A stretch of 33,356 nucleotides of DNA, from positions 1 to 33,356 of the forward strand of contig CAZEGO010000002.1 in assembly GCA_964511955.1 (NCBI GenBank), given 5' to 3'. Below are positions 10,767 to 23,594 of this stretch, piece by piece. A model generated the notes under the pieces. The model worked only from the letters and a program-made list of their open reading frames with translations, had not been told where the DNA came from and made no database searches. Numbering within the stretch: the first letter of the stretch is position 1; every line of letters begins with the position of its first letter. The stretch comes from an uncultured Planctomycetia bacterium. GTDB taxonomy: Bacteria > Omnitrophota > Gorgyraeia > Gorgyraeales > Gorgyraeaceae. The position numbers and the translations under genes were made by a program.

Positions 10767-11722
10767 CTCCTTTTCTTAAAAACAACTCTTCCATGCTCGC
10801 TCATCAGATGCACGACCCGGTACAGGACCGGCTTATGATACAGAAAATGGGATATTTCAGGATTAAGAAAACCGGGCTGGACAGGGTATTCGAGAGCTTC
10901 ATTATAAAAAACCTGAAAAAAAACTACCCTTTTATCACCGTAGAATGTGATTTTACATGGCCCTCTTTAAAACTGAGCGGCAGGCATTTATTTCAACTGG
11001 GAGGTTTCGGCGCGATAGATCCTTATGAATATTTAAAAGGAGGAAAAAGAGTCGAACGATTTTTAAAAAGAGTCTGTTCACCCATAAAAAAATGGGAAAC
11101 GTTCGAGCCGTCGGGAGAGTTTCCCGAGGCGGAATGGGGCTTCTGCGATGAATGCCTCACGGACATAAAATCATTCCTGAAAAAAAATAAAATACCCCTT
11201 ATACGCATAAAGTTCGGCCATCCCGAAGGTATAAGCAATCTGACCGCCGAACTTTACAAATTCTGGTATAAAAAACGGGGGAGAAGGTCACAGATACTGC
11301 TGGTGGAAAATTTCGGATTGATAGTTCCGTATGACACCGTGGAAACGATCTCTACACCCTTCTGGCTCGCTTTTAATACCGAAGACTCTTATAAAAGGCT
11401 TAAAGCCTTCCTGCAGTCGCGCGGTAAATTCGGGGAAATATATATTATGCTTATGTCCAACGGAGTCGCCGAAGGCATAGGCCTCACCAAAATCGAGGAA
11501 TGGAAAAAGATATTAAGAAAAGTCGGAAAAAAAGGCGACTTCATAGGAGTCAACGAACGCGAGTACCCCAGTGATTTCGGGACTTACCTGGAATATAACG
11601 AGGAAATAAAAGAAAAAATGCCCAAAAGGTTCCCTTTCCCGGAACCCCTGACGCTCAAGGAATTTTATGACTTTATCCAAAAAAATGAATCCGGGGAAGA
11701 CTATACTATCGTCAGGGAGTGA
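10748..11722 (+). CDS. Hypothetical protein, probable C-terminal part of the same split gene
   Basis: 324-aa ORF with no recognisable motif. One extra A in the A6 run would fuse it in frame to 10314..10766 (...WGKK-TIAPFL...). Confidence 0.55.
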   Translation: MGQKTIAPFLKNNSSMLAHQMHDPVQDRLMIQKMGYFRIKKTGLDRVFESFIIKNLKKNYPFITVECDFTWPSLKLSGRHLFQLGGFGAIDPYEYLKGGKRVERFLKRVCSPIKKWETFEPSGEFPEAEWGFCDECLTDIKSFLKKNKIPLIRIKFGHPEGISNLTAELYKFWYKKRGRRSQILLVENFGLIVPYDTVETISTPFWLAFNTEDSYKRLKAFLQSRGKFGEIYIMLMSNGVAEGIGLTKIEEWKKILRKVGKKGDFIGVNEREYPSDFGTYLEYNEEIKEKMPKRFPFPEPLTLKEFYDFIQKNESGEDYTIVRE

Positions 11723-12317: not shown

Positions 12318-12356
12318 CAAAAAAATGCACACTTCAGTAATACCTGAAGTGTGCAT
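12318..12356 (-). terminator. Rho-independent terminator downstream of the ferritin-like gene
   Basis: Perfect 13-bp stem atgcacacttcag / ctgaagtgtgcat (12325..12337 and 12344..12356) with a 6-nt loop. On the minus strand it is followed by a T7 run and more T-rich sequence. Confidence 0.75.
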
Positions 12357-12394
12357 TTGGGGGCTTTTTTTCGCGAAATGTATTTCAAACGGGT

Positions 12395-12703
12395 TTATTT
12401 CTCCCCGTGTTTTTTTATCTCTTCTTCTACCTCGCCGTATCCCTCTTTATAGAACTTCTCCTCATCCGGAGCAAGTTCTTTCAAAAGCCTGAGGAATTCG
12501 CCGGCGTGGACTCTTTCTTCATCGGCTATGTCCTTAAGCACTTCGCGTGCCAATTCGTTATCCGTGGACTCAGCAAGCTGCATATAAAGCTGAATTGCCT
12601 CGTATTCCGCGGCTATCGAGAACCTTATAGCCCTTATAAGTTCTTCTTTAGTCACTTTACGATCGTTTTTTAATCCCGCGAACGGGGAGCCAAATTCAGG
12701 CAT
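12395..12703 (-). CDS. Ferritin-like mini-protein of the encapsulated-ferritin (EncFtn) type
   Basis: IRFSIAAEYEAIQLYMQLAE...DIADEERVHAGEF carries the E...ExxH di-iron ligand pattern of EncFtn or rubrerythrin-like mini-ferritins. A strong SD (aggaaaggagag) lies upstream. Confidence 0.65.
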   Translation of the reverse strand: MPEFGSPFAGLKNDRKVTKEELIRAIRFSIAAEYEAIQLYMQLAESTDNELAREVLKDIADEERVHAGEFLRLLKELAPDEEKFYKEGYGEVEEEIKKHGEK

Positions 12704-12791: not shown

Positions 12792-13154
12792 CTACTCAAG
12801 ATAAAGACTGATTAATACGGGCCTGCCCTGCTCGTTTACAAAATATCTGGCTGTGCCCACTTCCCCCTCCACTATCCGGGAAAGAGATATTTCCTCCGAA
12901 CGTCTCTTTAATACCGATTCTTCCTTAACTATCAGGGTCTTTTCTATATCCCGCCTTAAAAAAAATATACTGTGTATTCTTACGGATATGGTAATGGTGT
13001 TTCCGAGTACGTCCACCGATTCTATCTGACAGGGGGCTGTGCGAATAGGCTCTTTAATTTTAAGCTCGGCGGTAGCGTTCAAAGCGTACAAAATTACGAA
13101 AGAAAAAATAATAAATAATATAACTAGGGGTATTTTTTGTTTGGAATCCAGCAT
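12792..13154 (-). CDS. Exported or membrane-anchored hypothetical protein
   Basis: N-terminal hydrophobic anchor IPLVILFIIFSFVILYAL. I prefer the ATG at 13154 (GGAAGG 10 nt upstream) over the TTG at 13160 used in the track. Confidence 0.45.
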   Translation of the reverse strand: MLDSKQKIPLVILFIIFSFVILYALNATAELKIKEPIRTAPCQIESVDVLGNTITISVRIHSIFFLRRDIEKTLIVKEESVLKRRSEEISLSRIVEGEVGTARYFVNEQGRPVLISLYLE

Positions 13155-13236
13155 CCGCAATGCCTTCCGGTGTATTTAGCCGCTAACTCTCACGGATTAT
13201 ATAATAATCCTTTACTACGTTTTACGCAACAGGTAA

Positions 13237-13605
13237 TTATCGCGCGCGGATAATCAGGATACCCGGAGAAACAAAAGCAATCAGGGGAAGCACGTACACG
13301 AGATATAAAACCGAGAGAAATATAAGCCAGGGCGAAAAACTCCGGGTACCTTCGGTGGCCGGGAAGCCGAAAAGAATAAAAACACATGAGAATACGGCAG
13401 AATAAAGTACGCTAAACAAAAACTTTACGCTCTTTTTCTCTATTTTTCTGTCGCAAAAGATCGATACTAGGACTGTAATAAAAAGGGTTACCGAAACCGG
13501 AGCGGCTCCGTCCGGCCAAAAAGACTCCGTGCCCCCATTAGTATACAACATAAGAGTCGCGATAATCCCGGAGAAAATCAAAAGAAGTGCGTAAATTCTT
13601 TTCAA
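13237..13605 (-). CDS. Integral membrane protein, unknown function
   Basis: 122 aa, four predicted TM helices, TTG start. It lies directly downstream of the radical SAM gene. Confidence 0.4.
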   Translation of the reverse strand: MKRIYALLLIFSGIIATLMLYTNGGTESFWPDGAAPVSVTLFITVLVSIFCDRKIEKKSVKFLFSVLYSAVFSCVFILFGFPATEGTRSFSPWLIFLSVLYLVYVLPLIAFVSPGILIIRAR

Positions 13606-13747: not shown

Positions 13748-14785
13748 TCATAAGACTTTTTCGGTCTTGAAAAAACACCCCGCGCAGACATCGGGCGGAT
13801 CAGCACTGTTTACCGTCTTTCGCATAGCGATAAATCTTTCGTTGTTCCAAACGCTCGCTATGTCCGTATGCGCGTTGATTTCACCTAGTCTCAATCTCTC
13901 ATCACAACAACAGGAAACGTTCCCATCGCCGGTTATTGAAACACAGTCCCATGGAAAATAGCATTTATTCAAACTTTTTTCTCTTTTCTTTTTATCGCAC
14001 AAATCCCCTCTAGTATATTTCTTTTTAAATTCTATCCCGATGGCTATATTGCTGCTTCGTGATTTCATCTCTGTTTTTTTTATAAATTCAAGTACCTTTC
14101 GAAAATCTTTATATAGACATTCATCGTTCTTTGTTCCGGTATAATCCACAAATTCCCGGAAATAAATCTTGTCTATCCCTAAATCCCGGAGATCGAACAA
14201 CCGCGAAAGGTTCTCAATGCTACTCAACATCGTACATACTACTAATTGTATTTTCATTTTATTACTTCCGGTATTTTTTTTCGCTTTTTTCAAAAGAACT
14301 ATATTATCTAAAAGGTTCTTCCATCTTACGCCTCTTATCCGCGTATAATCGTCTCCGTAGCCTTCCACACTTATGCTTACGTTATCAATATTTTCGGACA
14401 TAAGAACAGCTCTTTTTTTATCGAGAACGGAAAGGTTGGTGATAAGATTTATCTGCCTTAATTTGGTTCTACCGGCTCTGGACAAAAAATAATCAAAATC
14501 ATCCGAAACCAATGGCTCGCCAAGACTGTTACCTCCTATACGTAAATACTTACAATGCGGCAATACTTTTTCTATTACATAATCTACTAATTCTCTGGGC
14601 ATGTCTTTTTCTTCCTGCTCGAAGGAGCCTCTCGGACAATGAAGACAGTGAAGGTTGCACCTGTTGGTAAGGGAAACCATGAGCTTCTCGGGAGGGATAT
14701 TTAATCTTTCTCTCTTGGAGTAAAAAAGCTTTATAAGGGGTCCATGGACCCAAAAATTATTAAATATATTACTGATATATCTCAC
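13748..14785 (-). CDS. Radical SAM enzyme with C-terminal SPASM/twitch-like Cys-rich domain
   Basis: CxxxCxxC cluster motif in SLTNRCNLHCLHCPRG. Cys-rich C-terminus CYFPWDCVSITGDGNVSCCCDE...VCAGCFFK. GTG start. Confidence 0.85.
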   Translation of the reverse strand: MRYISNIFNNFWVHGPLIKLFYSKRERLNIPPEKLMVSLTNRCNLHCLHCPRGSFEQEEKDMPRELVDYVIEKVLPHCKYLRIGGNSLGEPLVSDDFDYFLSRAGRTKLRQINLITNLSVLDKKRAVLMSENIDNVSISVEGYGDDYTRIRGVRWKNLLDNIVLLKKAKKNTGSNKMKIQLVVCTMLSSIENLSRLFDLRDLGIDKIYFREFVDYTGTKNDECLYKDFRKVLEFIKKTEMKSRSSNIAIGIEFKKKYTRGDLCDKKKREKSLNKCYFPWDCVSITGDGNVSCCCDERLRLGEINAHTDIASVWNNERFIAMRKTVNSADPPDVCAGCFFKTEKVL

Positions 14786-14810
14786 CGGAGACCGGCCTTT
14801 TTAATTAAAA

Positions 14811-15824
14811 TCAATGCGTATTAATAAAATCTGTCAAAGTATCGACGGCTTTATCTATATCGATTCCTATTCTTATCTCATAGGTATCACATCTGCAAAG
14901 AACACCCAGGAAAAGCGCGCTTCTCGAGAAGACAAGTTTTATTTTTTCCATAAAATCTCTTAAGCCGCTTTTTAAAAATAACTCGACTATCTGAGGAAGC
15001 CCTAAACCAAAAACCCCGGACTCTATAAAAGGTATAAGACATTTTATCTTGGATATCCTGCTTATCTGGGTTTTTTCCTGAAAAACCCTTTTTCCTATCA
15101 GAATATTTTTTATATCCGCCTGCCCGGACAGACTATCAGAAAAATATGCGGTATCTATAAGAAATTTATCCCCATACCGTGGACGTTTTATATGCGTAAT
15201 CCGCTCTGCCGGTACATCGCACAGGGCTTCTCTGTCTCTTATACCTATACGCAAGACAAACGGATGTACGCGCCCGTCAAATCCCAGCATGCATACATCA
15301 TCCGATAATAGTTTTATACCATTATCCTGTTTTATAGCTTTGAACGCCAAGGTTGTCTTGCCCATAGCCATAGGCAAAAGACATATAGTAGCTCTTCCGG
15401 CTTTTGAGAGGCCGAGGCCGTGAATTCTGTGTATATGTCGTTTATCCAGACATTCGCCTATTCTCGACAGGCACGCTAGGCGCGCTTTCTCGTAAAGAAG
15501 ATTCTCGTCTTCCCCGTAAACAGCACCCTCTTCTTTGTTAAAATCATATATCATAAGGCCTTTCCCCATATAATCCACATAGTGTATACCGTCTTTCCTG
15601 TAACAAATAGAGTCCAGGTTGTATAAGGCCGCCTCGACCGGCGGAATCTTAAAATAAGGCACATCACCCTTATTTACACTCAAACTAACGCAACCGGTTA
15701 AATCCGGAGCCTCTTTATCAACAACATAGAGTGAGAAGTCCTTGCGCAGGTTATCCAGCACAAACTTACAATTGCCTTCTATTTTGATATTAACGTTATA
15801 AATATTTAAAAACACAGGCTTCAT
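14811..15824 (-). CDS. HPr-kinase-like (HprK-related) P-loop protein
   Basis: IHGLGLSKAGRATICLLPMAMGKTTLAFKAIKQDNGIKLLSDD aligns with the HprK C-terminal core (HG...G.GKS/T...L.ADD). No PTS genes are nearby. Confidence 0.62.
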   Translation of the reverse strand: MKPVFLNIYNVNIKIEGNCKFVLDNLRKDFSLYVVDKEAPDLTGCVSLSVNKGDVPYFKIPPVEAALYNLDSICYRKDGIHYVDYMGKGLMIYDFNKEEGAVYGEDENLLYEKARLACLSRIGECLDKRHIHRIHGLGLSKAGRATICLLPMAMGKTTLAFKAIKQDNGIKLLSDDVCMLGFDGRVHPFVLRIGIRDREALCDVPAERITHIKRPRYGDKFLIDTAYFSDSLSGQADIKNILIGKRVFQEKTQISRISKIKCLIPFIESGVFGLGLPQIVELFLKSGLRDFMEKIKLVFSRSALFLGVLCRCDTYEIRIGIDIDKAVDTLTDFINTH

Positions 15825-15827
15825 AGA

Positions 15828-17009
15828 TTATTGTTTATATACATCTTCGAGGCCGGCCAATGTCTTCTCCCACTTATACCGGCTCATAGTCTTTAAATAA
15901 CCCATCTCGGACAGACGTAAGGCCATATCGTCGTCTTTTAATAATTTTACCACACTTTCCGAGAATAGTTGCGGATTATCGGCTATGAGAATCTCCTCGC
16001 CGGATTTTAAATCCAGTCCCTCCGCGCCTTTTGATGTGCTGACCACCGGAATGCCTGCCGAAAGAGACTCGAGGATTTTAAGCCTCGTACCGCTCCCGTT
16101 TAATAGCGGCACCACCTTACATCTCGCCTGGTAATAATAAGGCCTCACGTCCATGACGTCAAATTTGTAATCCAGATTGGCCGTATTTTGAAAATATTTT
16201 ATCAGCCCGGAAGTAGGCGCCCTGCCCACGATACGGAATAACACATCCGGCACTTCCTTTTTTATAAGAGGCAGACATCTCTTACAAAAAAATAATACCG
16301 CTTCCTCATTCGCGAAATAATCCAGACTACCAGTAAATAATATAACAGGCGGGCGGGTTTGCCATTTTTTTTTGATTATATAACTGTCATTCACTCCGGA
16401 CGGGATTACTTTTATGGGCTTGCCTCCGAGAAAAGGCCTGAGAAACTCGGCATCCTTATCGGAAGTAGCCAGATTCACGTCAAAATGACCGAAATATTTT
16501 TTCTGGAACTTTTCCCATTTTATATATTCCCCTTTGTAATCGATTTTCTTGAAGAAGTTTTTCGTGTGGCTATATGCCCTTCGGAATAACTCTGTCTTCA
16601 CGTTGTGATGGTCAAGGACTTTCAAAGTGTTATGATTTTTCAAAAAAAGTTTCACGTAAGGCGCTATATAACCGTGTGAAATATGCACTACGTCAAATTT
16701 CTCCTTGCGCTCGATATCTTCTAATAAAGCGTACATCTTTTCCGAGTTATAATTCAGCGCCCAATGCGGCAGATAAGGGTCTTTGAATAACGTAGCGTAA
16801 TTCAGGGGGTGCAGTTCCACGGAGTATGTCTTAACTACCGGCAGGCTCTCCAGCCGCACTTCTTTCTTGCCTATCAGGTCTATGACGCCGACCAGGGTGA
16901 TCTCGAAACGCTCCGATAGTTTCTTCAGGATATGATAATCCCTTATCTTACTGCCGTGGTCGAGTGGACTTTCCGGAAGGTGAGGGGTTATGTATAACAG
17001 TTTTCTCAT
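15828..17009 (-). CDS. GT-B glycosyltransferase, family 4 type (Glycos_transf_1)
   Basis: The C-terminal half has the GT4 signature (NGSGTRLKILESLSAGIPVVSTSKGAEGLDLKSGEEILIAD). The 393-aa length is typical. Confidence 0.85.
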   Translation of the reverse strand: MRKLLYITPHLPESPLDHGSKIRDYHILKKLSERFEITLVGVIDLIGKKEVRLESLPVVKTYSVELHPLNYATLFKDPYLPHWALNYNSEKMYALLEDIERKEKFDVVHISHGYIAPYVKLFLKNHNTLKVLDHHNVKTELFRRAYSHTKNFFKKIDYKGEYIKWEKFQKKYFGHFDVNLATSDKDAEFLRPFLGGKPIKVIPSGVNDSYIIKKKWQTRPPVILFTGSLDYFANEEAVLFFCKRCLPLIKKEVPDVLFRIVGRAPTSGLIKYFQNTANLDYKFDVMDVRPYYYQARCKVVPLLNGSGTRLKILESLSAGIPVVSTSKGAEGLDLKSGEEILIADNPQLFSESVVKLLKDDDMALRLSEMGYLKTMSRYKWEKTLAGLEDVYKQ

Positions 17010-17146
17010 TTCTGTTTTTTTAAGCCTTTTTTAAGCCGGTGAGATATATATAGAAAAGCGTTTATAAAAAATACTATAGTTATAAAAACCAAAGTATTCA
17101 GCGTATAATCTATCCTTTTTTTAAGCATTGTCCTGCTGAAAGCCAT
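17006..17146 (-). CDS. Unannotated 46-aa single-TM ORF
   Basis: Hand translation gives MAFSRTMLKKRIDYTLNTLVFITIVFFINAFLYISHRLKKGLKKQK. Its ATG is 2 nt after the TAG of the upstream gene, and its TGA overlaps the ATG of the GT4 gene (ATGA at 17006..17009). It fills the only apparent gap in the operon. Confidence 0.4.
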   Translation of the reverse strand: MAFSRTMLKKRIDYTLNTLVFITIVFFINAFLYISHRLKKGLKKQK

Positions 17147-17148
17147 AT

Positions 17149-18510
17149 CTATGCCCTTTTTTTAATGAGTCTCGATGATTTTTCGTTTATTTTGTTTATA
17201 AGTTCATATAGTACAGGATATGTCTCGTGTATTTTGTTAGCGTACCAGTTCTCACACCCCAACGCGTCGCCGTAATTCGCTATAATTTTTGAAATCAAAT
17301 CACAAGAATCACACCTTGTCTCCCGTGCTATTCCGATAAAATTATCCGCGGACTCAAGAAAAAGATAATAATATATAAGCAGCCTTATTTCGGGCATGGT
17401 AAAAAAATCGAACGAACGGGATTTCTCACCCCTGTAGAACATAAGAAAAGGCAAAAAAAACTCTTTCAGCCTATATGCAAACTCTTTTATCTTAAAAATG
17501 TTCCACATCCGCGGCGGGTGTATTATCTTAAGTTCATTCGAACTATCGTACACCGGGCCGTACTGAAGAAAATATGACTCGAGTGCTATAGGGCCGTTCA
17601 TATAATACATCTGATTGGTAATGAGTGAGGAAGTGGAAAAACGGACTATCAATTCTTTCTTCTCTATCTCTCTGCGTAACTTTCTGCACCGCCTTATGAT
17701 GCGTTCCATAATCTCTAAAGGCGTGTCTTTGTCTATCAGGAGAAACAAATTCGTGCGGTAAAACTTATAGGGCTCTTTATATGCCACCGCTTCTATATCT
17801 TTGCCTGTGATATTATTTATAATACTATATACCGATAGATCTTTCGGCTTCTCATTGATCCTGGACGATAAGTAAGTAATGTCTTCTTTATCTAATGACT
17901 GATACGCCTCCGTAAGGTTTAACAGGATATCCTTAAGTATATAAACAGGATTTTTTTTCTCGTTACTGTTTTCAATAAGCCTATCCGAAAATCTGATTGT
18001 ATTTATATGATTTTTTATACGTGAAGCGGATTTTTCCATTCTGGCACGCTGTCCCAACCCTATATGTTCATTCTGGAAAATTATTTCCTGCAAAAAGCCG
18101 TACAGGTTAAACCTGACGGAGTCCGGAAAAGGATATCTTGTCCTGCCTGAGGGATAGATCTTCTCATCTCCCTCGCGTATAAACCGAATCTCATTCGACG
18201 GACACAGGATAAAGAAAAACAACCTGCACGCTCTGTAGAATTTTATAAAGCGTCTGAAAAAGTCCATCTCTTCATCAGCCTTCATGGACTTTGTGACTAT
18301 TATAAGGTCTATATCACTCATCCCTAAAATCCAGTCCCGGTGTTTTACGGATATAGACTTTATTTCCCTATAGCCTAAAACCCCGACACCATATCTAAGG
18401 AACCTGACCGCCAGGCTGTAATAGAATCTCAGGAACGGTCTGAATATCCTCAACCTGTTAAGATCGAACAATAAGGTATTGATAAAATTCTTAAATCTTT
18501 CCATTGTCAT
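17149..18510 (-). CDS. Hypothetical 453-aa protein with a possible minimal nucleotidyltransferase-like motif
   Basis: GMSDIDLIIV resembles the DxD strand of Pol-beta-fold NTases. The rest is unrecognisable. It overlaps the upstream gene by 20 nt. Confidence 0.4.
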   Translation of the reverse strand: MTMERFKNFINTLLFDLNRLRIFRPFLRFYYSLAVRFLRYGVGVLGYREIKSISVKHRDWILGMSDIDLIIVTKSMKADEEMDFFRRFIKFYRACRLFFFILCPSNEIRFIREGDEKIYPSGRTRYPFPDSVRFNLYGFLQEIIFQNEHIGLGQRARMEKSASRIKNHINTIRFSDRLIENSNEKKNPVYILKDILLNLTEAYQSLDKEDITYLSSRINEKPKDLSVYSIINNITGKDIEAVAYKEPYKFYRTNLFLLIDKDTPLEIMERIIRRCRKLRREIEKKELIVRFSTSSLITNQMYYMNGPIALESYFLQYGPVYDSSNELKIIHPPRMWNIFKIKEFAYRLKEFFLPFLMFYRGEKSRSFDFFTMPEIRLLIYYYLFLESADNFIGIARETRCDSCDLISKIIANYGDALGCENWYANKIHETYPVLYELINKINEKSSRLIKKRA

Positions 18511-20446
18511 ATTGATTAAGACTTGATGATATATAACAGGGATTCGTACAATAACACCTGTCCCTGAATTCTCTTATCTCGTCCGTAAAATTTTCTTGTA
18601 CGGCTTTCCTGACGTCAAAACCATAATTTTTAAGATTGGTTATCGGTTTTACCGCCTCGCAAATGGATATATCGTAATTCGGGAAAATAGTGACTATGGA
18701 TTCCCCGGCGGAGCATCTTATAGCTGGTTTTTTCTGAATTACCTGGCTACTTATTATTTTAAACATGCGCTTTTGATATCCGGCTTTCTCTCGTCCTATT
18801 ATACCGTCTCTGACCTGGATATTATAAAGTTTATCCAGGTTTCTTTTTAACCTTTTAATCTGTCCGGTCTCAAGAAGCTGAGAACTGTCTTTCGGGCCGT
18901 AATATTGGTTTATAAATCTTTTCTCCTCGCAAAACATATTTTTGTCCCTTACGATATCAAAAACGTGAAATACCCTAAGCTCCTTTCTCACGAAATCCGC
19001 TAAAGGGATTAAATCGTCAAGGTTATTTTTGCTTATTGCAGTCTGTACATCGACTTCTAAATTATTGTTTTTACCCTCTAAGACTTTCAGAGCATTGATA
19101 GTTTTAACGGCCGAACGGAAAGCTCCCGGATGATTCCTTACGCGGTCATGGGTTTCTGCCAATCCATCCAGTGAAATCCACAAATTAAACGTAAAATAAG
19201 ATGTTTTTAAAATCCTTTTTACCTTGTTCAGTATCAAATCCGTCTCCAACCCATTCGAGACGATATACATGTTACTTAAATAAATATTCTTCGCTAATGC
19301 CTCGCATATTTCTTCCAATTCATTTGACAAAAAAGGCTCACCCCCTCCTATGCAGACTGTCCTGATATCCCTATCCAGTGAGCGTAATACCTTAATGATA
19401 TCTCCCGCTTTCATATCGCTTTTGTCTTTCCTGTCGGTATTATGATTAAAACAGTGCGAGCAGTCTAAATTGCATCTATTTGTTATGAAGAGTACCATGT
19501 CCCGGGATTTCTTAAAACCTTCCCCTGAACTCGCTTTCCATCCTTTTCCCGCGACTAAACCCGCTATAAAGAAAACTCTCTGGAGGACAAGCGCGGAATA
19601 ATATTTCATCAGATCGCAAAAACCTTTTTCAGAATAAATTCTTTTCGCGTAAGCACGCCTGTAAGACGCGTTGATGTCCTTGTAGAACACGCGAACTGCC
19701 TTATAAAAAGAGCCTACACTATCCAGATGGTAATCATAGAAATCATTATGTATAGCCTTGACCTGAGCTTTGCCGAATCCATAGAAATACCAGGCCCTAA
19801 GAAAAGGAACAAGCCTGTCCCTGTAATAATGCCTCGCTCTCATTTTCTCGCTATAAGCGATAAGGATGCCTTTCTTTTTCAATTTCCAGTGTAATTCCAC
19901 GTCCTCATTGGTGATTAATCTCTCATCGAAAGGTTTCCGGAAAGAATCGAGAATCTCTTTCCTGATGGCGAAATTCTGAGTATTTAACATATCAACGTGT
20001 CCGGGAGTAGTTTCAAGCATGGAGCCTATCCAGGCGTTGTACTCATTATCCATTATCCCGGCGTAGATTTTAGAGCGCGAAGAAACGTGTGTAGTATTGC
20101 CCTGCAAGGCCATGATATCATGGCGCGAACTAAAACTATCCGCGATTGCCTCTATCCAGCCCGGAAGTGCCTCGCAGTCATCGTCCAGAAAGGCTATAAT
20201 GCTTGATCGGGCAAGAGATATACCTTTATTGCGGGCGCTGGGTATATTCAGGCCTGTTTCATAAAAATATTTAATGGGTAGCGAGTCTTTGGAATCATCC
20301 GTTACTAAAGCGAGGTGGCCACCACCGGTATTTATTATAATTATTTCCCGTGGAGTTAATATCTGAGATTTAAGGCTTTCAAGCAGTCTTTTTAATTCCT
20401 TCTGCCTGTTGCAAGTTATTATAATAATCGAGACGGAGGTACTCAT
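18491..20446 (-). CDS. Fusion protein: GT2 glycosyltransferase (N-terminal) and radical SAM with Cys-rich C-terminus
   Basis: GT2 hallmarks VSIIIITCNRQKELKRLLESL and FLDDDCEA in residues 1-230. A hydrophobic linker follows, then FITNRCNLDCSHCFNH (CxxxCxxC), then the C-terminal CSAGES...ICEA...RCYCTNPCY. Confidence 0.85.
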   Translation of the reverse strand: MSTSVSIIIITCNRQKELKRLLESLKSQILTPREIIIINTGGGHLALVTDDSKDSLPIKYFYETGLNIPSARNKGISLARSSIIAFLDDDCEALPGWIEAIADSFSSRHDIMALQGNTTHVSSRSKIYAGIMDNEYNAWIGSMLETTPGHVDMLNTQNFAIRKEILDSFRKPFDERLITNEDVELHWKLKKKGILIAYSEKMRARHYYRDRLVPFLRAWYFYGFGKAQVKAIHNDFYDYHLDSVGSFYKAVRVFYKDINASYRRAYAKRIYSEKGFCDLMKYYSALVLQRVFFIAGLVAGKGWKASSGEGFKKSRDMVLFITNRCNLDCSHCFNHNTDRKDKSDMKAGDIIKVLRSLDRDIRTVCIGGGEPFLSNELEEICEALAKNIYLSNMYIVSNGLETDLILNKVKRILKTSYFTFNLWISLDGLAETHDRVRNHPGAFRSAVKTINALKVLEGKNNNLEVDVQTAISKNNLDDLIPLADFVRKELRVFHVFDIVRDKNMFCEEKRFINQYYGPKDSSQLLETGQIKRLKRNLDKLYNIQVRDGIIGREKAGYQKRMFKIISSQVIQKKPAIRCSAGESIVTIFPNYDISICEAVKPITNLKNYGFDVRKAVQENFTDEIREFRDRCYCTNPCYISSSLNQYDNGKI

Positions 20447-20483
20447 ATATAATATATATTATTACACAAATACAACCTCATTA

Positions 20484-20870
20484 TTACAATTTTTTAATAA
20501 GCGTAGGATTAAAACTTTCATCCAGCCATAGAGCATTTACCAGCTTTACCGGAAAATCCCACGAAGCTATAACGCCTGCCGCCTTTATCAGCTGTTTTTT
20601 TTGCGATTCAACGTCCACAGGATTTCCGGCACAATCGTAATGAGCCGCTATAAATATTATGTTTGAACCGTGTTTTTCCACAGATACGGCTACTCGCTTT
20701 CTTATAGATTTTACCGTATCAAAGTCTTTACCCTCGGCCAGTATCTTATTCGGACCCGGCTCTGTTATCATATCCACGTAATCAACGTCGAATTTTTTCT
20801 TGATAAATTCCATAACCGGCATCTGCGTTCTCCCGTCCATGCAATTTATAGCTGTGGCGAATTTAAACAT
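20484..20870 (-). CDS. Small beta-carbonic-anhydrase-like protein (Cys/His/Cys metal-site pattern)
   Basis: CMDGR near the N-terminus and HYDCAG at about residue 87 mimic the beta-CA CxDxR and HxxC zinc-ligand motifs. GGAGGG SD lies upstream. Its start overlaps the MATE stop by 8 nt. Confidence 0.45.
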   Translation of the reverse strand: MFKFATAINCMDGRTQMPVMEFIKKKFDVDYVDMITEPGPNKILAEGKDFDTVKSIRKRVAVSVEKHGSNIIFIAAHYDCAGNPVDVESQKKQLIKAAGVIASWDFPVKLVNALWLDESFNPTLIKKL

Positions 20871-22218
20871 AAGTCTGCCCTCCGTATTTATGTTTTTTCA
20901 TTTCCCTGGTTATAAATAAAATGGCGGCGCATGCAGCGGTAAAGTCCGTAACGGGCCCGCTGAACCATATACCCTCCAGGCCGTATAGAGACGACAGAAT
21001 GTATAACACGGGTACGAAGATTATCACCTGCCGCAGGAGCCCCATGAATATAGCATGAGCCCCCTTGCCTATGGCCTGAAAATATCTCGACCCTAAAATA
21101 GTAACAGCCTCCGCGGATGCCATTATAAGAAATATACGTATAGCGTGAGCTCCAAGCAAAGTAAGCTCGATATTGCCTCTTGAAAAAAGTCCCACTATGC
21201 CCCTTGCAAAAACAGCCACTAACAGGACAAACCCTGTCACCACAAGAAAATTTATCTTACACGCATAATAAAAAGTGTCTTTCGCCCTCTTGTTCTGCCC
21301 GGCCCCGTAATTATATCCCACTATAGGCTGCATACCTGCCGCCATCCCGGCCGTAAAAAGACGCAGTATGGAATATATAGGAAATATTATTCCTATAGCA
21401 GCAACAGCGATATTACCCCCGTAGACAAGAAGCCTCTCATTCAAAAGAATCAACTGAACGCTTGAGGCCACGGTGAGAAAAGCTGTTGACAACCCGAGAA
21501 AACCTATCTTTCTTATAACGGGTATATCCAGTCTTAAATTTTTCCTGCGAATATGCACTACGCCCTTTTTTCTGGTCATATAGAAAAGTCCCATAAGCGC
21601 CACTACACCCTCTGAGATTATGGTCGCAAGAGCCGCGCCTTCCGTACCCATAGACAGCAGAAAAATAAATATCGGGTCCAGTATAAGATTTATGACCGTT
21701 CCCGTTACGATAGCCGCTGTGGCGTATATGGGGTTTCCCTCCGCTCTTATAATAAAAGTAAGCGTGAACCCGTAAAGGAATAAAGGCCCTCCGGACAGAA
21801 TAATCCTGAGATATCCCTCGGCGTACGGAAGAACCTCGGGAGGCATATTGAAAAGGCCTATGATATTTTTATAGTAAAAATTTCCCGTAATCGCCAGGGC
21901 TAACCCCACTACCGTAATCGCGGCAATAGTGGTTCCCAGAATTTTCTCGGCCTTATATTGCCTGTTCTCTCCCAGATGGATGGATATAAGAGCGGACGCG
22001 CCGCTCGAGAACATCATGCACACGCCGAAAATTAAAAGTATTATAGGAAAGCACAGCGTAACGCCGGTAAGACCGAGTGACCCTACGCCCCGGCCTATGA
22101 ATATCCTGTCGGCCACATTATAAAATGCATGCAATACGAGGCTGGCTATGGAAGGAATAGCGAATTGCGCCAGCAGAGTCGATATCTTTTTTGTGCCTAA
22201 TCTTTTCGAACGGTCCAA
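20863..22218 (-). CDS. MATE-family efflux transporter
   Basis: 451 aa, 12 predicted TM helices, N-terminal LLAQFAIPSIASLVLHAFYNVADRIFIGRGVG typical of MatE repeats. TTG start with AGGAG 9 nt upstream. Confidence 0.88.
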   Translation of the reverse strand: MDRSKRLGTKKISTLLAQFAIPSIASLVLHAFYNVADRIFIGRGVGSLGLTGVTLCFPIILLIFGVCMMFSSGASALISIHLGENRQYKAEKILGTTIAAITVVGLALAITGNFYYKNIIGLFNMPPEVLPYAEGYLRIILSGGPLFLYGFTLTFIIRAEGNPIYATAAIVTGTVINLILDPIFIFLLSMGTEGAALATIISEGVVALMGLFYMTRKKGVVHIRRKNLRLDIPVIRKIGFLGLSTAFLTVASSVQLILLNERLLVYGGNIAVAAIGIIFPIYSILRLFTAGMAAGMQPIVGYNYGAGQNKRAKDTFYYACKINFLVVTGFVLLVAVFARGIVGLFSRGNIELTLLGAHAIRIFLIMASAEAVTILGSRYFQAIGKGAHAIFMGLLRQVIIFVPVLYILSSLYGLEGIWFSGPVTDFTAACAAILFITREMKKHKYGGQTYV

Positions 22219-22270
22219 AATATACGCTCCTGTATTATTCCAATCATTATATACTAAAATACCGCCTTAT

Positions 22271-22304
22271 AAAATAAAAAGTCCATCTCCGAAAAGATGG
22301 ACTT
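22271..22304 (-). terminator. Rho-independent terminator after the VIT1 gene
   Basis: Stem aagtccatct / agatggactt (22279..22288 and 22295..22304) with a 6-nt loop. On the minus strand it is followed by tttttatttt. Confidence 0.6.
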
Positions 22305-22369
22305 TTACCGACTCCTGAGTGGGTTTCTTGAATCCGGACTGTTTAGCCCGTGCCTTAACATCTACCAAA

Positions 22370-23245
22370 TCATATATCTACGTGTAAAAACTTTCTCACC
22401 GCAAGGCCGATTAAAAAACTCAAGAATGCCACGCCTATACTGACTGCGGCCATTTCCGTAAAGCGTTTCCCGAAAGGGATATCTTTTATCACCGATGAAT
22501 AAAAAGTAAAAGCGGCTATGAGCAGGACAGCAAAAGCTATCGTCATAAATAACGCTTGATAGCTGTCCTTAAAAATAAAATAAGGCGAAACAAGTATCAT
22601 CACCGTAACTACATATGCCATGCCCGTATAAAACGACGCCTTTAGAGGGTTCTTCTTGTCACTCTCCGTCTTTGTGGAAATATACTCGGACACTGCCATG
22701 GAAAGCGAAGCCGAAAATCCCATGATAAGCCCTGTCATAGCGATCAGGCGTGAATGCCGAAGCGCCAGAGTAAATCCTGCCAGCGCTCCCATAAACTCCA
22801 CCAGCGCGTCATTCAACCCCAGCACGATAGAACCCATGTACGCCAATTTTTCTTCGTCTATCATATCCGAAAGCTTAGACTCGTGCTCGGATTCATCCCT
22901 GTGTATGTCTTCTGCCTCGGGTACTACCTCCGAGAGCCCGGCATAAGCGGATTGCGCGTCAGTCTCTCCTCTTTCCATCAGTTTAATACCGAACGTGACC
23001 CCAAATACCCTCGCCAGCATCACATAAAACCATATCTTAAATCTGTCAGGCTTTATCTTTATGCCAGAATGCTTATACCAGATATCGTAATGGCGCAGCT
23101 CTTCTTCGGAAAGATTCATTAAGACTTGACGATTGCTTTCCTTGCGCGCGAGGCCGGCAAGCGAGCGGTAAATATAATACTCGGTAACCTCGCTTTTCTG
23201 GAATTTTATTATTGTTTTCTTAACGTTAACGCCCACTCTGCTCAT
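22370..23245 (-). CDS. VIT1/CCC1-family Fe/Mn transporter with N-terminal ferritin-like (erythrin) domain
   Basis: The N-terminal EYYIYRSLAGL...EEELRHYDIW is ferritin-like. The C-terminal GLNDALVEFMGALAGF plus TM helices is VIT1. I trimmed the start to the ATG at 23245 (MSRVGVN), 4 nt after the upstream stop. Confidence 0.82.
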   Translation of the reverse strand: MSRVGVNVKKTIIKFQKSEVTEYYIYRSLAGLARKESNRQVLMNLSEEELRHYDIWYKHSGIKIKPDRFKIWFYVMLARVFGVTFGIKLMERGETDAQSAYAGLSEVVPEAEDIHRDESEHESKLSDMIDEEKLAYMGSIVLGLNDALVEFMGALAGFTLALRHSRLIAMTGLIMGFSASLSMAVSEYISTKTESDKKNPLKASFYTGMAYVVTVMILVSPYFIFKDSYQALFMTIAFAVLLIAAFTFYSSVIKDIPFGKRFTEMAAVSIGVAFLSFLIGLAVRKFLHVDI

Positions 23246-23249
23246 ATTT

Positions 23250-23594
23250 TTATTCCCGTTGATCTTCTGCGTATTTACCGGACAGCGCGTTTTCAACGGC
23301 TTTTTTTAAATTATTACTGCTTACGGTGGCTCCCGTTATCGCATCCACTTCGATGGATTGATTCTCGATTATGAGGGGTATCAGATCTTCTACCATCTCC
23401 TCGTAAGTTTCTCCTCCGCCTCCGTGACGTAATATTTTTATGTCGGTTATCTCACCTTCTTTTACGGTGACTTCCGCCTTTATAAAAGAATGCTCTCCTA
23501 CGTAAACACCGTCTTCATAAGACCCATCCCAGGCATAAACTCGAGAAACAAAAATTATAAAAAACGACAAGATCGAAACATAAACTCTTTTCAT
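23250..23594 (-). CDS. Secreted FMN-binding domain protein
   Basis: VDAITGATVSSNNLKKAVENAL is the FMN_bind signature (the Thr is the site of flavinylation in homologues). Signal peptide MKRVYVSILSFFIIFVSRVYA. I trimmed the start to 23594, which has a GGGAGG SD. Confidence 0.75.
   Translation of the reverse strand: MKRVYVSILSFFIIFVSRVYAWDGSYEDGVYVGEHSFIKAEVTVKEGEITDIKILRHGGGGETYEEMVEDLIPLIIENQSIEVDAITGATVSSNNLKKAVENALSGKYAEDQRE

What the first reader, a model, noticed from the sequence alone, without database searches (positions are those of the whole stretch)
13748..22218. AT-rich eight-gene block with two radical SAM enzymes, an HprK-like kinase, two glycosyltransferases, an NTase-like protein and a MATE exporter, but no recognisable substrate gene
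Seen in sequence: eight co-directional minus-strand ORFs are packed with overlaps or near-zero gaps. These include an 8-nt overlap at 20863..20870, a 20-nt overlap at 18491..18510, a 2-nt gap plus ATGA coupling around the 46-aa ORF at 17006..17146, and a 3-nt gap between 15824 and 15828. Both radical SAM proteins carry CxxxCxxC plus Cys-rich C-termini. The 337-aa protein aligns with the HprK core (HG...GKTT...LSDD). Spot counts of individual 60-nt lines gave roughly 35-40% GC here against roughly 45-60% in the flanks, so the block looks compositionally foreign. Established knowledge: SPASM-type radical SAM enzymes are mostly peptide maturases. HPr-kinase homologues occur in lasso-peptide clusters, where they phosphorylate the precursor C-terminal Ser, and in the SynChlorMet cassette alongside radical SAM/SPASM enzymes. 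NTase-fold and glycosyltransferase enzymes can further decorate such phospho-peptides. Inference: this looks like a peptide or small-molecule tailoring pathway (radical chemistry, then phosphorylation, then glycosylation, then MATE export). It lacks a lasso cyclase, a leader peptidase, a PqqD/RRE domain and any obvious precursor ORF, so it does not fit a named class I know.
Basis: partly seen in the sequence, partly recalled or inferred. Interest (0 to 1): 0.8.

Follow-up and report, generated by a model that had tools for sequence, protein, structure and literature searches.

The report
Uncharacterised kinase–nucleotidyltransferase–glycosyltransferase–radical SAM cassette
This is a real operon from a rare, previously undescribed gene cassette found across many phyla, which probably attaches a phosphate-linked, radical-SAM-modified sugar group to a target that is still unidentified, and a conserved 46-aa 'MAF' mini-protein encoded inside it is a new candidate for that target.

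Summary
The eight minus-strand ORFs, their overlaps and both CxxxCxxC motifs are as described. The AT-richness claim is overstated: the block is 40.9% GC against 43.7% for the rest of the window.

**Which assignments hold**
- Pfam thresholds are passed by Radical_SAM+SPASM (A), GT4 (C), GT2+Radical_SAM (F), Pro_CA_2 (G) and MatE (H).
- The 'HprK-like' protein B fails every Pfam and NCBIfam cut-off. It is still a PEPCK/HprK-fold P-loop kinase, remotely homologous to RiPP-associated HprK-like kinases.
- E belongs to a very rare Pol-beta-type nucleotidyltransferase-like family with no structural match.

**Context in relatives**
- Across 32 loci carrying a B relative, in more than 10 phyla, GT2 occurs in 26, E-like in 24, rSAM/SPASM in 19 and GT4 in 14.
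- E::GT2 and GT2::rSAM fusions tie these enzymes together.
- Most relatives sit among glycan-assembly genes. Two carry PqqD proteins, and one of these also has leader-type precursor peptides.
- The window has no PqqD gene and no YxxPxL-type precursor.
- The 46-aa ORF D is conserved in five loci, always beside E, and always starts Met-Ala-Phe.

**Best model:** a PsmK/PsmN-like phospho-glycosylation pathway with an unresolved acceptor. It is a new variant of a known kind, of moderate to high interest.

The parts
22277..22306 (-). Terminator-like hairpin (13-bp stem plus T run) ending the upstream VIT1-family gene's transcript
   Evidence: This is a consensus scan only.
22246..22273 (-). Best sigma-70-like promoter match (TTTATA-16-TATAAT), followed by an AGGAG RBS before the TTG start of H
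   Evidence: This is a consensus match, not proof of function.
20863..22218 (-). H: MATE efflux transporter with 11-12 TM segments. It is translationally coupled to G but is not conserved in related cassettes.
   Evidence: PF01554 at 133 bits; TIGR00797 at 175 bits (cut-off 147). TM scan. No partner in the clustering of the first 28 sources and no tblastn match in the later loci.
20484..20870 (-). G: Pro_CA_2 (putative carbonic-anhydrase-like) small protein. It is not conserved in related cassettes.
   Evidence: PF20393 at 158 bits. No partner in the clustering of the first 28 sources and no tblastn match in the later loci.
18491..20446 (-). F: fusion of a GT2 glycosyltransferase (residues 1-~235) and a radical SAM domain (~310-651; C325xxxC329xxC332 plus 5 C-terminal Cys). 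Predicted soluble.
   Evidence: PF00535 at 74 bits and PF04055 at 59 bits, with no SPASM hit. About 8 other database clusters share this architecture. F'-D'-E'-C' synteny in L041.
17149..18510 (-). E: 453-aa Pol-beta-type nucleotidyltransferase-like protein (L-G-M-S65-D66-I-D68 motif) from a very rare family
   Evidence: No Pfam or NCBIfam hit. Only 29 representatives out of 1.84 billion proteins. Relatives hit PF01909, best 5e-9. The model (pLDDT 84) has no significant PDB or BFVD match.
17006..17146 (-). D: conserved 46-aa 'MAF' mini-protein (MAFSRTMLKKRIDYTLNTLVFITIVFFINAFLYISHRLKKGLKKQK) with one hydrophobic helix and basic ends
   Evidence: Homologs starting MAF lie beside the E-subfamily gene in L001, L038, L039 and L041. 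TM scan.
15828..17009 (-). C: GT4 (GT-B fold) glycosyltransferase
   Evidence: PF13692 at 72 bits and PF00534. The best NCBIfam match is TIGR03087 at 185 bits, below its cut-off of 317. Orthologs follow E in L001 (52%), L039 (38%) and L041 (39%).
14811..15824 (-). B: 337-aa PEPCK/HprK-fold P-loop kinase (H132-R-I-H-G, G155-K156-T-T, L-S174-D-D). It represents a new family.
   Evidence: No Pfam hit. 68 homologs, all annotated hypothetical. Model pLDDT 89, with Foldseek PEPCK matches at E 1.5e-8 and TM 0.6. 18 of 23 family members hit HprK_rel_A and HprK_rel_B. hhalign to the L034 ScmC/Hpr_kinase_C-type kinase gives E 1e-5.
13748..14785 (-). A: radical SAM/SPASM enzyme (C43xxxC47xxC50, 7 Cys in the C-terminal domain). 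There is no N-terminal RRE domain.
   Evidence: PF04055 at 57 bits and PF13186 at 35.6 bits. The best NCBIfam match is W_rSAM_matur at 112 bits, against a cut-off of 380. The nearest solved structures are BtrN and MoaA. Orthologs at 40% identity in L001 and L041.
12323..12358 (-). Next strong terminator-like hairpin on the minus strand. This is a possible true 3' end of the transcript, which would then also cover three non-conserved small genes (13237-13605, 12792-13160, 12395-12703).
   Evidence: No terminator-like site was found between 13748 and this point. The three genes have no counterparts in related loci.

Best explanation
The block is one operon. Its conserved core is F-E-D-C-B-A (18491-20446 through 13748-14785). 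That core belongs to an undescribed cassette built around three parts: a PEPCK/HprK-fold kinase (B); a large Pol-beta-type nucleotidyltransferase-like protein (E) with its small 'MAF' partner (D); and GT2/GT4 glycosyltransferases. SPASM-type radical SAM enzymes usually accompany them.

Working mechanism:
1. B uses ATP to phosphorylate a hydroxyl group on the acceptor.
2. E uses its DxD metal site to turn that phosphate into a phosphodiester-linked nucleotidyl or glycosyl group. The precedent is the HprK-like kinase PsmK and the nucleotidyltransferase PsmN on the lasso peptide pseudomycoidin.
3. The GT2 domain of F and the GT4 enzyme C add or extend sugars.
4. The radical SAM domain fused to the GT2, and the SPASM enzyme A, modify the sugar or the acceptor.
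5. In this genome all enzymes are predicted soluble, and the co-transcribed MATE pump is the only candidate exporter.

The acceptor is not identified. My leading candidate is a small ribosomal peptide handled without a classical leader or RRE, with D itself as the concrete candidate. A non-peptide envelope glycoconjugate comes second.

What is shown: operon structure, domain and fold assignments, conserved co-occurrence, the fusions, and D conservation. What is inferred: every chemical step, the order of steps, and the acceptor.
For: - Operon packing and start signals.
- B: PEPCK-like fold at E 1.5e-8, TM ~0.6 over both domains. P-loop and LSDD motifs are conserved. 18 of 23 members hit HprK_rel_B (best 2.7e-6) and HprK_rel_A, and 4 hit the bona fide HPr(Ser) kinase model. 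There is a full-length hhalign match (299 columns, E 1e-5) to a kinase that carries ScmC/Hpr_kinase_C Pfam hits and sits next to PqqD.
- E: the G-x-S-D-x-D motif is nearly invariant. Relatives pass PF01909 (27 bits against GA 21; best 5e-9).
- Co-occurrence in 32 loci from more than 10 phyla: GT2 in 26, E-like in 24 (0-7 kb from B), rSAM/SPASM in 19, GT4 in 14. The E subfamily itself has only 29 representatives in 1.84 billion proteins.
- Fusions link the enzymes: E::GT2 in L015 and L016; GT2::rSAM in the window and about 8 other clusters.
- Minimal cassette in L039: GT-B-D-E-GT4.
- Precedent: PsmK (DD mutant inactive) and PsmN (DxD mutant inactive) give phospho- then hexosyl-pseudomycoidin (PMC6993621). 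LPP clusters pair an HprK-like kinase with an NTP transferase inside capsule loci (PMC13381572).
- Peptide link: L032 has three tandem plus one distal K-rich/YxxPxL small ORFs after B, an E-like gene overlapping PqqD, and NTP_transf_5. L034 has B-like, F-like, PqqD, a second HprK-like kinase and a 606-aa ABC transporter.
- D is conserved with an invariant Met-Ala-Phe in five loci, always adjacent to E.
- None of A, B, C, E or F has a TM segment in the window.
- No initiating phosphoglycosyltransferase was seen in any Pfam-annotated locus.
Against: - No biochemical evidence exists for any member of either family.
- B fails all curated thresholds, and its top structural neighbours are PEPCKs, which act on a small molecule rather than a protein.
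- E has no significant structural neighbour, so the NTase activity rests on a motif and on transitive HMM hits.
- Most related loci show no PqqD or precursor and are full of polysaccharide and glycolipid machinery: Polysacc_synt, ABC2_membrane, Wzy_C, PMT_2 and sugar redox enzymes.
- The window has no RRE, no YxxPxL-type ORF, no peptidase and no cyclase.
- D could simply be a subunit or membrane tether of E. Apart from MAF it has no conserved Ser or Thr (Ser4 is Val or Ile in three homologs).
- MATE is not conserved with the cassette.
- The nearest solved relatives of the rSAMs include sugar-, lipid- and peptide-modifying enzymes alike (BtrN, MoaA, SkfB, GDGT-MAS, BlsE).
Confidence: 0.4

Rival explanations
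1. Envelope glycoconjugate locus. The cassette decorates a polysaccharide, glycolipid or lipid-linked glycan, for example with sugar-phosphate or phosphodiester substituents. B would act as a sugar or glycan kinase and E as a LicD/fukutin-like phosphotransferase. No ribosomal peptide would be involved.
For: - Neighbours of B homologs include a Polysacc_synt (Wzx-like) flippase directly upstream of B in L010-L013, ABC_tran/ABC2_membrane pairs, Wzy_C, PMT_2, multiple GT2/GT4, GFO_IDH_MocA, epimerase, YdjC and GDSL.
- C's best family match is the PEP-CTERM/XrtA-associated EPS glycosyltransferase TIGR03087 (185 bits, full length).
- More distant GT2::rSAM/SPASM fusions sit with DegT aminotransferase, formyltransferase and transketolase genes.
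- A's auxiliary-cluster domain is closest to BtrN, a sugar-modifying enzyme.
- An EEP-family phosphodiesterase-like gene occurs in the deltaproteobacterial loci.
Against: - The window has no flippase, polymerase, ABC exporter, priming phosphoglycosyltransferase or sugar-nucleotide genes, and all its enzymes are predicted soluble.
- No priming transferase was seen in any annotated relative.
- All characterised HprK-like kinases outside PEPCK act on Ser of proteins or peptides.
- RiPP clusters with the same enzyme pair are known to be embedded in capsule loci, so context alone does not discriminate (PMC13381572).
- The PqqD/precursor loci L032 and L034 point the other way.
Confidence: 0.3
2. Nucleotide-sugar or small-molecule pathway. 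B is an anomeric or sugar kinase. E is a sugar-phosphate nucleotidyltransferase that makes an unusual NDP-sugar. The rSAM enzymes remodel it, the GTs transfer it, and a soluble glycoside or nucleoside-like product is pumped out by the MATE transporter.
For: - Kinase, nucleotidyltransferase and GT follow the logic of sugar salvage and activation.
- The E::GT2 and GT2::rSAM fusions fit substrate channelling.
- F's rSAM domain weakly matches cytosylglucuronate decarboxylase, and A matches BtrN.
- The enzymes are soluble and a MATE pump is co-transcribed.
- The authors of the PsmN study also considered that PsmN might make a donor substrate (PMC6993621).
Against: - From my own knowledge, known sugar-1-P nucleotidyltransferases and anomeric kinases use other folds.
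- MATE is not conserved with the cassette.
- This model does not explain D, or the PqqD and precursor genes in L032 and L034.
Confidence: 0.12
3. Classical leader-dependent RiPP cluster, of the SCM, LPP or lasso-tailoring type, whose precursor and RRE are encoded elsewhere in the genome.
For: Remote homology of B to HprK_rel_A, HprK_rel_B and ScmC-type kinases. Two rSAM enzymes are present. L032 and L034 show what the complete version could look like.
Against: - No PqqD/RRE, peptidase, cyclase or YxxPxL-type ORF exists anywhere in the 33-kb window.
- A has only 42 residues before its CxxxCxxC motif, so it has no fused RRE.
- ScmE and ScmF scores are 35 and 27 bits against cut-offs of 400.
- Most relatives also lack these genes within 10 kb.
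Confidence: 0.1
4. Not a functional unit. These would be unrelated glycosyltransferase, rSAM and hypothetical genes that merely share an operon.
For: H and G are not conserved with the rest. The order of the core genes varies between loci.
Against: B, E-like and GT2 co-occur in 24-26 of 32 loci across more than 10 phyla. There are gene fusions and translational coupling. The D-E-C order is kept in L001, L039 and L041, and the window has the same three genes adjacent in the order E-D-C.
Confidence: 0.03

Closest known systems
HprK-like kinase plus nucleotidyltransferase tailoring pair of paeninodin-type lasso peptides (PsmK/PsmN of pseudomycoidin; PMC6993621)
   Same: - A P-loop kinase with an ...SDD motif is paired with a DxD nucleotidyltransferase-fold protein.
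- Glycosyl groups are involved, and an exporter lies in the same operon.
- B is a remote homolog of this kinase class.
   Different: - There is no lasso cyclase, B1/B2 or YxxPxL precursor.
- B fails Hpr_kinase_C and the HprK_rel models.
- E is not PF14907 and is twice the size of that domain.
- The window adds a GT2::rSAM fusion, a SPASM enzyme, a GT4 and the D mini-protein.
- The exporter is MATE rather than an ABC transporter.
Linear polyphosphorylated peptide (LPP) clusters of Bacillota (PMC13381572)
   Same: - A kinase and an NTP transferase form the conserved core.
- The clusters are embedded in glycosyltransferase-rich or capsule loci.
- The final product is unknown.
- The core peptide is about 45 aa. 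In LPP it starts AQS, with Ser3 phosphorylated; D without its initiator Met is 45 aa and starts AFS.
   Different: - The window has no SpI peptidase, no discrete RRE, no MsbA-like pump and no YxxPxVL leader.
- Ser4 of D is not conserved in its homologs.
- LPP clusters have no radical SAM enzymes.
- The phyla are different.
SynChlorMet (SCM) cassette: ScmC (HprK-like), ScmD (PqqD), ScmE/ScmF (rSAM/SPASM). The composition is from my own knowledge of the TIGRFAM/NCBIfam definitions.
   Same: - An HprK-related protein is combined with two SPASM-type radical SAM enzymes, and no precursor has been identified.
- A B-family member (P0059) carries a precomputed PF27840 (ScmC) hit.
- HprK_rel_B is the best family-level match.
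   Different: - A and F score 35 and 75 bits on ScmE, and A scores 27 bits on ScmF, all against cut-offs of 400.
- There is no PqqD.
- The SCM cassette has no E-like, GT2 or GT4 partners.
ATP-dependent phosphoenolpyruvate carboxykinase (structural neighbour of B)
   Same: Two-domain architecture and the P-loop nucleotide-binding domain (Foldseek E 1.5e-8, TM 0.6 normalised to B).
   Different: - Sequence identity is 10-13%.
- B is 337 aa against about 530 aa.
- The only sequence-level signal is a sub-threshold P-loop match to an NCBIfam PEPCK model (E 0.21 for B, best 0.012 in the family).
- The genomic context is glycosyltransferases rather than central metabolism.

Membership tests
HPr kinase / HprK-related kinases (Pfam Hpr_kinase_C; NCBIfam TIGR00679, TIGR04352, TIGR04355) | Score above the curated HMM cut-off | tested here: not met
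   B has no Pfam hit at E<=10. HprK_rel_A scores 13.6 bits and HprK_rel_B 13.2 bits, against cut-offs of 200.
HPr kinase / HprK-related kinases (Pfam Hpr_kinase_C; NCBIfam TIGR00679, TIGR04352, TIGR04355) | PEPCK-like P-loop fold with a Walker A GxxGKT/S motif and a downstream ...(A/S)DD motif; remote homology at profile level | tested here: met
   - Motifs G155-K156-T-T and L-S174-D-D are conserved.
- Foldseek matches to PEPCK at E 1.5e-8.
- 18 of 23 members hit HprK_rel_A and HprK_rel_B, and 4 hit TIGR00679.
- hhalign to an Hpr_kinase_C/ScmC-type kinase gives E 1e-5 over 299 columns.
HPr kinase / HprK-related kinases (Pfam Hpr_kinase_C; NCBIfam TIGR00679, TIGR04352, TIGR04355) | Membership of Pfam PF27840 (ScmC) | not testable with these tools
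   The model is not in the local Pfam copy. Only precomputed hits are visible, on P0059 and on the L034 kinase.
Radical SAM / SPASM | Radical_SAM domain with CxxxCxxC, plus a SPASM auxiliary-cluster domain above the gathering score | tested here: met
   A: PF04055 at 57.1 bits and PF13186 at 35.6 bits (GA 21.5). F: Radical_SAM at 58.7 bits but no SPASM hit, only 5 C-terminal Cys. Met for A and only partly for F.
Pol-beta-type nucleotidyltransferase (Pfam NTP_transf_2 / NTP_transf_5) | HMM hit above threshold; hG[GS] and DxD motifs | tested here: inconclusive
   - E itself has no hit.
- The motif L-G-M-S-D-I-D is nearly invariant.
- 3 of 16 relatives hit PF01909 (best 5e-9), and the L031 paralog scores 27 bits against GA 21.
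- There is no PF14907 hit.
- There is no significant structural match.
Lasso peptide cluster (paeninodin type) | Asn-synthase-like macrolactam cyclase, B1 (PqqD) and B2 peptidase, and a precursor with a YxxPxL leader | tested here: not met
   None were found among the block or flanking ORFs by Pfam or NCBIfam. No YxxPxL-type ORF is credible as a precursor in the window. A PqqD profile finds nothing.
LPP RiPP family (PMC13381572) | SpI-like peptidase, discrete RRE, HprK-like kinase, NTP transferase, MsbA-like exporter and a YxxPxVL precursor | tested here: not met
   Only remote counterparts of the kinase and the NTase are present. No peptidase, RRE or ABC exporter was found in the ORFs scanned. 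No such precursor was found.
SynChlorMet cassette | ScmE and ScmF rSAM/SPASM equivalogs, plus ScmD (PqqD) and ScmC | tested here: not met
   ScmE scores 34.8 bits (A) and 74.8 bits (F), and ScmF scores 27.4 bits (A), all against cut-offs of 400. No PqqD is present.
Wzx/Wzy- or ABC-dependent polysaccharide locus | Priming phosphoglycosyltransferase, a flippase or ABC exporter, a polymerase or ligase, and sugar-nucleotide genes | tested here: not met
   - None are present in the window.
- H is MatE, not Polysacc_synt.
- Such genes do occur in many related loci, but no priming transferase was seen.
MATE efflux transporter | MatE domains above threshold and about 12 TM segments | tested here: met
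   PF01554 at 133 bits; TIGR00797 at 175.3 bits, above its cut-off of 147.4. 11 TM segments by hydropathy.
Mycofactocin pathway (MftF GT2 plus MftC rSAM) | Equivalog scores for MftF and MftC, plus MftA and MftB | tested here: not met
   MftF scores 96 bits against 280. MftC scores 49 bits (F) and 32 bits (A) against 265. No MftA- or MftB-like genes are present.

The most novel reading that the evidence does not exclude
The 'MAF' mini-protein D is not a subunit but a leaderless, RRE-independent ribosomal acceptor. In this reading the PEPCK-fold kinase B and the novel nucleotidyltransferase-like enzyme E build a phosphate-linked glycan on it. The GT2::rSAM fusion and the SPASM enzyme remodel that glycan by radical chemistry. 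This would be a new class of phosphoglycosylated mini-protein or RiPP-like product, spread over many uncultured phyla.
Probability: 0.2. Interest if true: 0.85.

Novelty: new variant of a known kind. Interest (0 to 1): 0.6.

Why it matters
- If the model holds, the kinase plus nucleotidyltransferase 'phospho-glycosylation' logic extends beyond a few Bacillota lasso and LPP peptides. It would then apply to a cassette present in at least ten mostly uncultured phyla and one archaeal MAG.
- It would give first functional hypotheses for two protein families with no annotation. One is a PEPCK-fold kinase. The other is a roughly 450-700-aa NTase-like protein with no structural relative.
- It points to GT2::radical-SAM fusions as enzymes that may couple glycosyl transfer to radical sugar or acceptor chemistry.
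- The invariant Met-Ala-Phe mini-protein offers a concrete, cheap experimental entry point: a synthetic peptide plus purified B and E.
- The result also shows that glycan-rich context and RiPP-type context overlap for this enzyme pair. This matters for genome-mining tools that classify loci as one or the other.

Tried and rejected
- **Sequence searches of B against PDB.** The single sequence and the 23-sequence profile gave only sub-threshold generic P-loop hits (MiaA, RecA). Only the fold search was informative.
- **E in every library.** Pfam, NCBIfam, PADLOC, PDB fold and BFVD fold searches returned nothing significant.
- **Word-indexed homolog search for E.** It found one relative only. The exhaustive search was needed.
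- **The search for related loci.** The metagenome scan with A2 added one new locus.
- **Anti-phage defence reading.** Rejected: only generic rSAM similarity to pVip.
- **Riboswitch or leader upstream of the MATE gene.** Rejected: no Rfam hit anywhere in the window.
- **Horizontal-transfer island reading.** Rejected as unsupported by GC or GC3.
- **The 31-aa ORF after the F homolog in L034 as a precursor.** Rejected: it is a GT2 gene fragment.
- **Ser4 of D as a conserved phospho-acceptor.** Weakened: it is Val or Ile in L038, L039 and L041.
- **My own early note that D is not conserved in L001.** This was wrong and is corrected.
- **Literature.** Searches for the combination rSAM/SPASM, glycosyltransferase and HPr kinase found no description of this cassette. 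The library does not cover subscription journals.
- **Source organism.** It could not be determined: the look-up by exact sequence found no record.

Full report
**1. The observation**

The eight minus-strand ORFs are at the stated coordinates:

| Gene | Coordinates | Product |
|---|---|---|
| H | 20863-22218 | MATE |
| G | 20484-20870 | Pro_CA_2 |
| F | 18491-20446 | GT2::radical SAM |
| E | 17149-18510 | NTase-like |
| D | 17006-17146 | 46-aa ORF |
| C | 15828-17009 | GT4 |
| B | 14811-15824 | 'HprK-like' kinase |
| A | 13748-14785 | rSAM/SPASM |

- The quoted junctions are exact: an 8-nt H/G overlap, a 20-nt F/E overlap, a 2-nt E/D gap, an ATGA D/C overlap and a 3-nt C/B gap.
- A terminator-like hairpin (22306-22277), then the best promoter-like match in the region (22273-22246) and an AGGAG RBS, precede the TTG start of H.
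- The next strong minus-strand terminator-like site is at 12358-12323. The transcript may therefore also include three small non-conserved genes downstream of A. These signals are consensus matches only.
- The compositional claim does not hold up. The block is 40.9% GC against 43.7% for the rest of the window. Per-gene values are 38-46%, and several other genes are equally AT-rich.

**2. Domain assignments**

- Passing Pfam gathering scores: A has Radical_SAM plus SPASM; C has GT4-type domains; F has Glycos_transf_2 plus Radical_SAM/Fer4_12, but not SPASM; G has Pro_CA_2; H has MatE.
- Every equivalog-type NCBIfam model (ScmE/F, MftF/MftC, PqqE, NirJ, W_rSAM_matur, TIGR03087) scores far below its cut-off.
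- B and E have no Pfam hit even at E<=10. B has only E~0.03 hits to HprK_rel_A and HprK_rel_B.
- The nearest solved relatives of the rSAM domains are distant and of mixed substrate type. For A they are BtrN and MoaA. For F they are SkfB, GDGT-MAS and cytosylglucuronate decarboxylase.
- PADLOC shows only generic rSAM similarity to pVip. Rfam finds nothing in the window.

**3. What B is**

- B has 68 relatives in 5.8 billion protein clusters, all annotated 'hypothetical' where a source names them (one further hit is a partial 'tetratricopeptide repeat protein'). They come from Omnitrophota, Elusimicrobia, Endomicrobiales, Bdellovibrionales and an archaeal MAG.
- Alignment shows conserved HRIHALG, GGKTT and LLSDD motifs, and supports the 337-aa start.
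- The AlphaFold model (pLDDT 89) matches ATP-dependent PEP carboxykinases over both domains (E 1.5e-8, TM ~0.6 normalised to B).
- It is established structural knowledge that the HprK/P catalytic domain shares this PEPCK-like P-loop fold.
- At family level, 18 of 23 members hit HprK_rel_B (best 2.7e-6) and 18 of 23 hit HprK_rel_A. Four hit the HPr(Ser) kinase model and six hit a PEPCK model.
- A profile-profile comparison with a kinase from locus L034 aligns 299 columns at E 1e-5, probability 82%. That kinase carries Pfam ScmC/Hpr_kinase_C hits and lies next to a PqqD gene.
- B is therefore a new family in the HprK/PEPCK superfamily. It is not a member of the curated HprK families.

**4. What E is**

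- The word-indexed search found one relative.
- An exhaustive profile search of 1.84 billion representatives found 29 at E<=1e-3, and 11 at E<=1e-10.
- The only nearly invariant residues are S65-D66-I67-D68 after a Gly, plus F84 and Y92; Y31 and F99 are fully invariant. The S-D-I-D string fits a Pol-beta nucleotidyltransferase hG[GS]...DxD signature.
- Three of 16 relatives hit PF01909 (best 5e-9) and Polbeta. One paralog in L031 passes the gathering score.
- The model (pLDDT 84) has no significant match in PDB or BFVD. Only insignificant NTase-fold entries appear among the top rows.
- 'NTase-like' is therefore reasonable at family level but rests on a motif.

**5. Comparative genomics**

I collected loci encoding B relatives in three ways. 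I looked up their exact protein sequences on contigs. I scanned GTDB species-representative genomes. I also followed relatives of F and E. I then called ORFs, clustered them and built family HMMs locally.

The census covers 32 non-redundant loci with a B gene. They come from Omnitrophota, Planctomycetes, Ignavibacteria, Spirochaetia, Desulfobacterota and other 'delta' lineages, Elusimicrobia, Anaerolineae, Acidobacteriota, Methylomirabilis and Gemmatimonadota.

| Partner gene | Loci (of 32) |
|---|---|
| GT2 | 26 |
| E-like (0-7 kb from B) | 24 |
| rSAM/SPASM | 19 |
| GT4 | 14 |
| ABC ATPase | 9 |
| PMT_2 | 6 |
| Polysacc_synt flippase | 6 |
| B12-rSAM | 5 |

- Many loci are truncated by contig ends, so these counts are lower bounds.
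- Gene fusions tie the enzymes together. E-like::GT2 (N-terminal half) occurs in L015 and L016. GT2::rSAM occurs in the window and in about 8 other database clusters.
- The closest full relatives keep A, B, C, D, E and a GT2 or F. These are L001 (561-kb JGI contig), L041 and L039.
- L039 is a minimal version, GT-B-D-E-GT4, followed by housekeeping genes.
- H and G have no counterpart in any relative: none in the clustering of the first 28 sources and no tblastn match in the later loci.

**6. The small ORF D**

- My first impression was that D is not conserved. That was wrong.
- Homologs occur in L001, L038, L039 and L041. Each directly abuts or overlaps the E-subfamily gene, and each starts Met-Ala-Phe. 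Basic residues, a hydrophobic helix and a basic tail follow.
- An HMM of four of them finds nothing else in 13,124 stop-to-stop frames.
- D is thus the small ORF that co-varies with the cassette. Whether it is a subunit or tether of E, or the acceptor, cannot be decided here.
- Apart from MAF there is no conserved Ser or Thr.

**7. Peptide or glycan?**

Evidence for a glycan:
- The usual neighbours are Wzx-like flippases, Wzm/Wzt-type ABC pairs, Wzy_C, PMT_2, many GTs, and sugar redox or deacetylase genes.
- More distant GT2::rSAM/SPASM fusions sit with sugar aminotransferase and formyltransferase genes.

Evidence for a peptide:
- L032/L033 (B 48% identical) has three tandem small ORFs immediately after B and a fourth further on. 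Each has a Lys-rich N-terminus and a variable Pro-rich tail. Three of the four carry a Y-x-x-P-x-[L/I] motif; the first tandem ORF has Leu in place of Pro.
- In the same locus an E-like gene overlaps a PqqD gene. A second PqqD, an NTP_transf_5 gene and further rSAM/SPASM genes are also present.
- L034 combines a B-like gene, an F homolog (41%), a sulfotransferase, a 606-aa ABC transporter (TMD+NBD; MsbA-like is my reading, Pfam gives only ABC_tran), PqqD and a second HprK-type kinase.

Published precedent:
- PsmK and PsmN install phosphate and then hexose on pseudomycoidin (PMC6993621).
- LPP clusters pair an HprK-like kinase with an NTP transferase. They are embedded in capsule loci whose GTs may act on the peptide (PMC13381572).
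- Context alone therefore does not discriminate between the two readings.

The window itself:
- It has no PqqD, peptidase, cyclase or YxxPxL-type ORF.
- It has no flippase, polymerase, priming transferase or sugar-nucleotide genes.
- All five enzymes lack TM segments.

**8. Mechanism**

I commit to a PsmK/PsmN-like phospho-glycosylation pathway.
- B phosphorylates a hydroxyl on the acceptor.
- E converts the phosphate into a phosphodiester-linked nucleotidyl or glycosyl group.
- The GT2 domain of F and the GT4 enzyme C add sugars.
- The fused rSAM domain and A perform radical modification.
- Export in this genome is possibly through H.

Irrespective of the acceptor, I rate this logic at about 0.6. 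With a leaderless peptide acceptor (candidate D) I rate it 0.4. Rivals are an envelope glycoconjugate at 0.3, a nucleotide-sugar or small-molecule product at 0.12, a leader-dependent RiPP with a remote precursor at 0.1, and no functional unit at 0.03. Every chemical step is inference.

**9. Novelty and verdict**

- No searched paper describes this cassette.
- It resembles the lasso/LPP kinase-NTase tailoring pair and the SCM cassette, but it fails the membership tests for each.
- I class it as a new variant of a known kind.
Interest 0.6.

Noticed in passing
L032 11023-11513 and 20524-20667 (also L033): Three tandem small ORFs and one distal small ORF lie next to a B homolog, an E-like gene overlapping PqqD, a second PqqD, NTP_transf_5 and rSAM/SPASM genes. 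Examples are MKKKKRQYKKPSLKKVLAEQNLKNLAEICAAAPGGDPPAG and MKPRENNKRKKKKYLAPEIEKFRIDDLAKKWNIMSAPSPDPDECPPR. Each has a Lys-rich N-terminus and a variable Pro-rich tail, and three of the four have a YxxPx[LI] motif (Leu replaces Pro in the first). This looks like a genuine, undescribed RiPP cluster interleaved with PMT_2, Wzy_C and ABC genes.
   Followed up: partly
L015 16052-18154 and L016 13161-15455: The E-like protein is fused at its C-terminus to the N-terminal half of a GT2. The C-terminal half of the GT2 is a separate downstream gene (cluster c5); it follows the fusion directly in L014, L016 and L021, but was not detected in L015. The same split GT2 follows unfused E-like genes in L011 and L028; L013 shows only the N-half and L012 neither piece in the clustering.
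   Followed up: partly
L031 2215-7520: The cassette core is duplicated in tandem: B1, E-like 1, E-like 2, B2. An rSAM/SPASM gene and a GT2 follow.
   Followed up: no
window 31551-33160: This is the lowest-GC stretch of the window (about 35%). It carries a Doc/Fic-like toxin ORF (motif HPFIDGNKRTG, 32409-32804) overlapping an upstream antitoxin-sized ORF (32801-33160), plus another ~100-aa ORF (31551-31853). It is probably a toxin-antitoxin islet. No HMM search was run on it.
   Followed up: no
window 10314-11722 (+): Two overlapping plus-strand ORFs (150 and 324 aa) have no Pfam hit. With 9855-10304 they are the only plus-strand genes in a window that is otherwise entirely minus-strand. They may be one gene with a frameshift.
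   Followed up: partly
window 22370-23296 and 12395-12703: Iron-handling genes bracket the block. On one side is a ferritin-like/VIT1 fusion, and on the other a 102-aa rubrerythrin/EncFtn-like protein. Neither recurs near B homologs.
   Followed up: partly
window 14811-15824: The database gene call for B (P0001, 316 aa) starts 21 codons downstream of the ATG at 15824. Alignment with homologs supports the upstream ATG.
   Followed up: yes
L034 1054-1292 and 4995-5090: Intergenic remnants of an ABC-transporter C-terminus and of a GT2 N-terminus suggest recent rearrangement or decay in that locus.
   Followed up: no
L035 868-7774: Two full GT2::rSAM paralogs (37% and 34% identical to F) flank a third GT2-containing protein of similar size. 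A GH113 gene and a further rSAM/SPASM gene are also present, with no B or E within the 11-kb contig.
   Followed up: no
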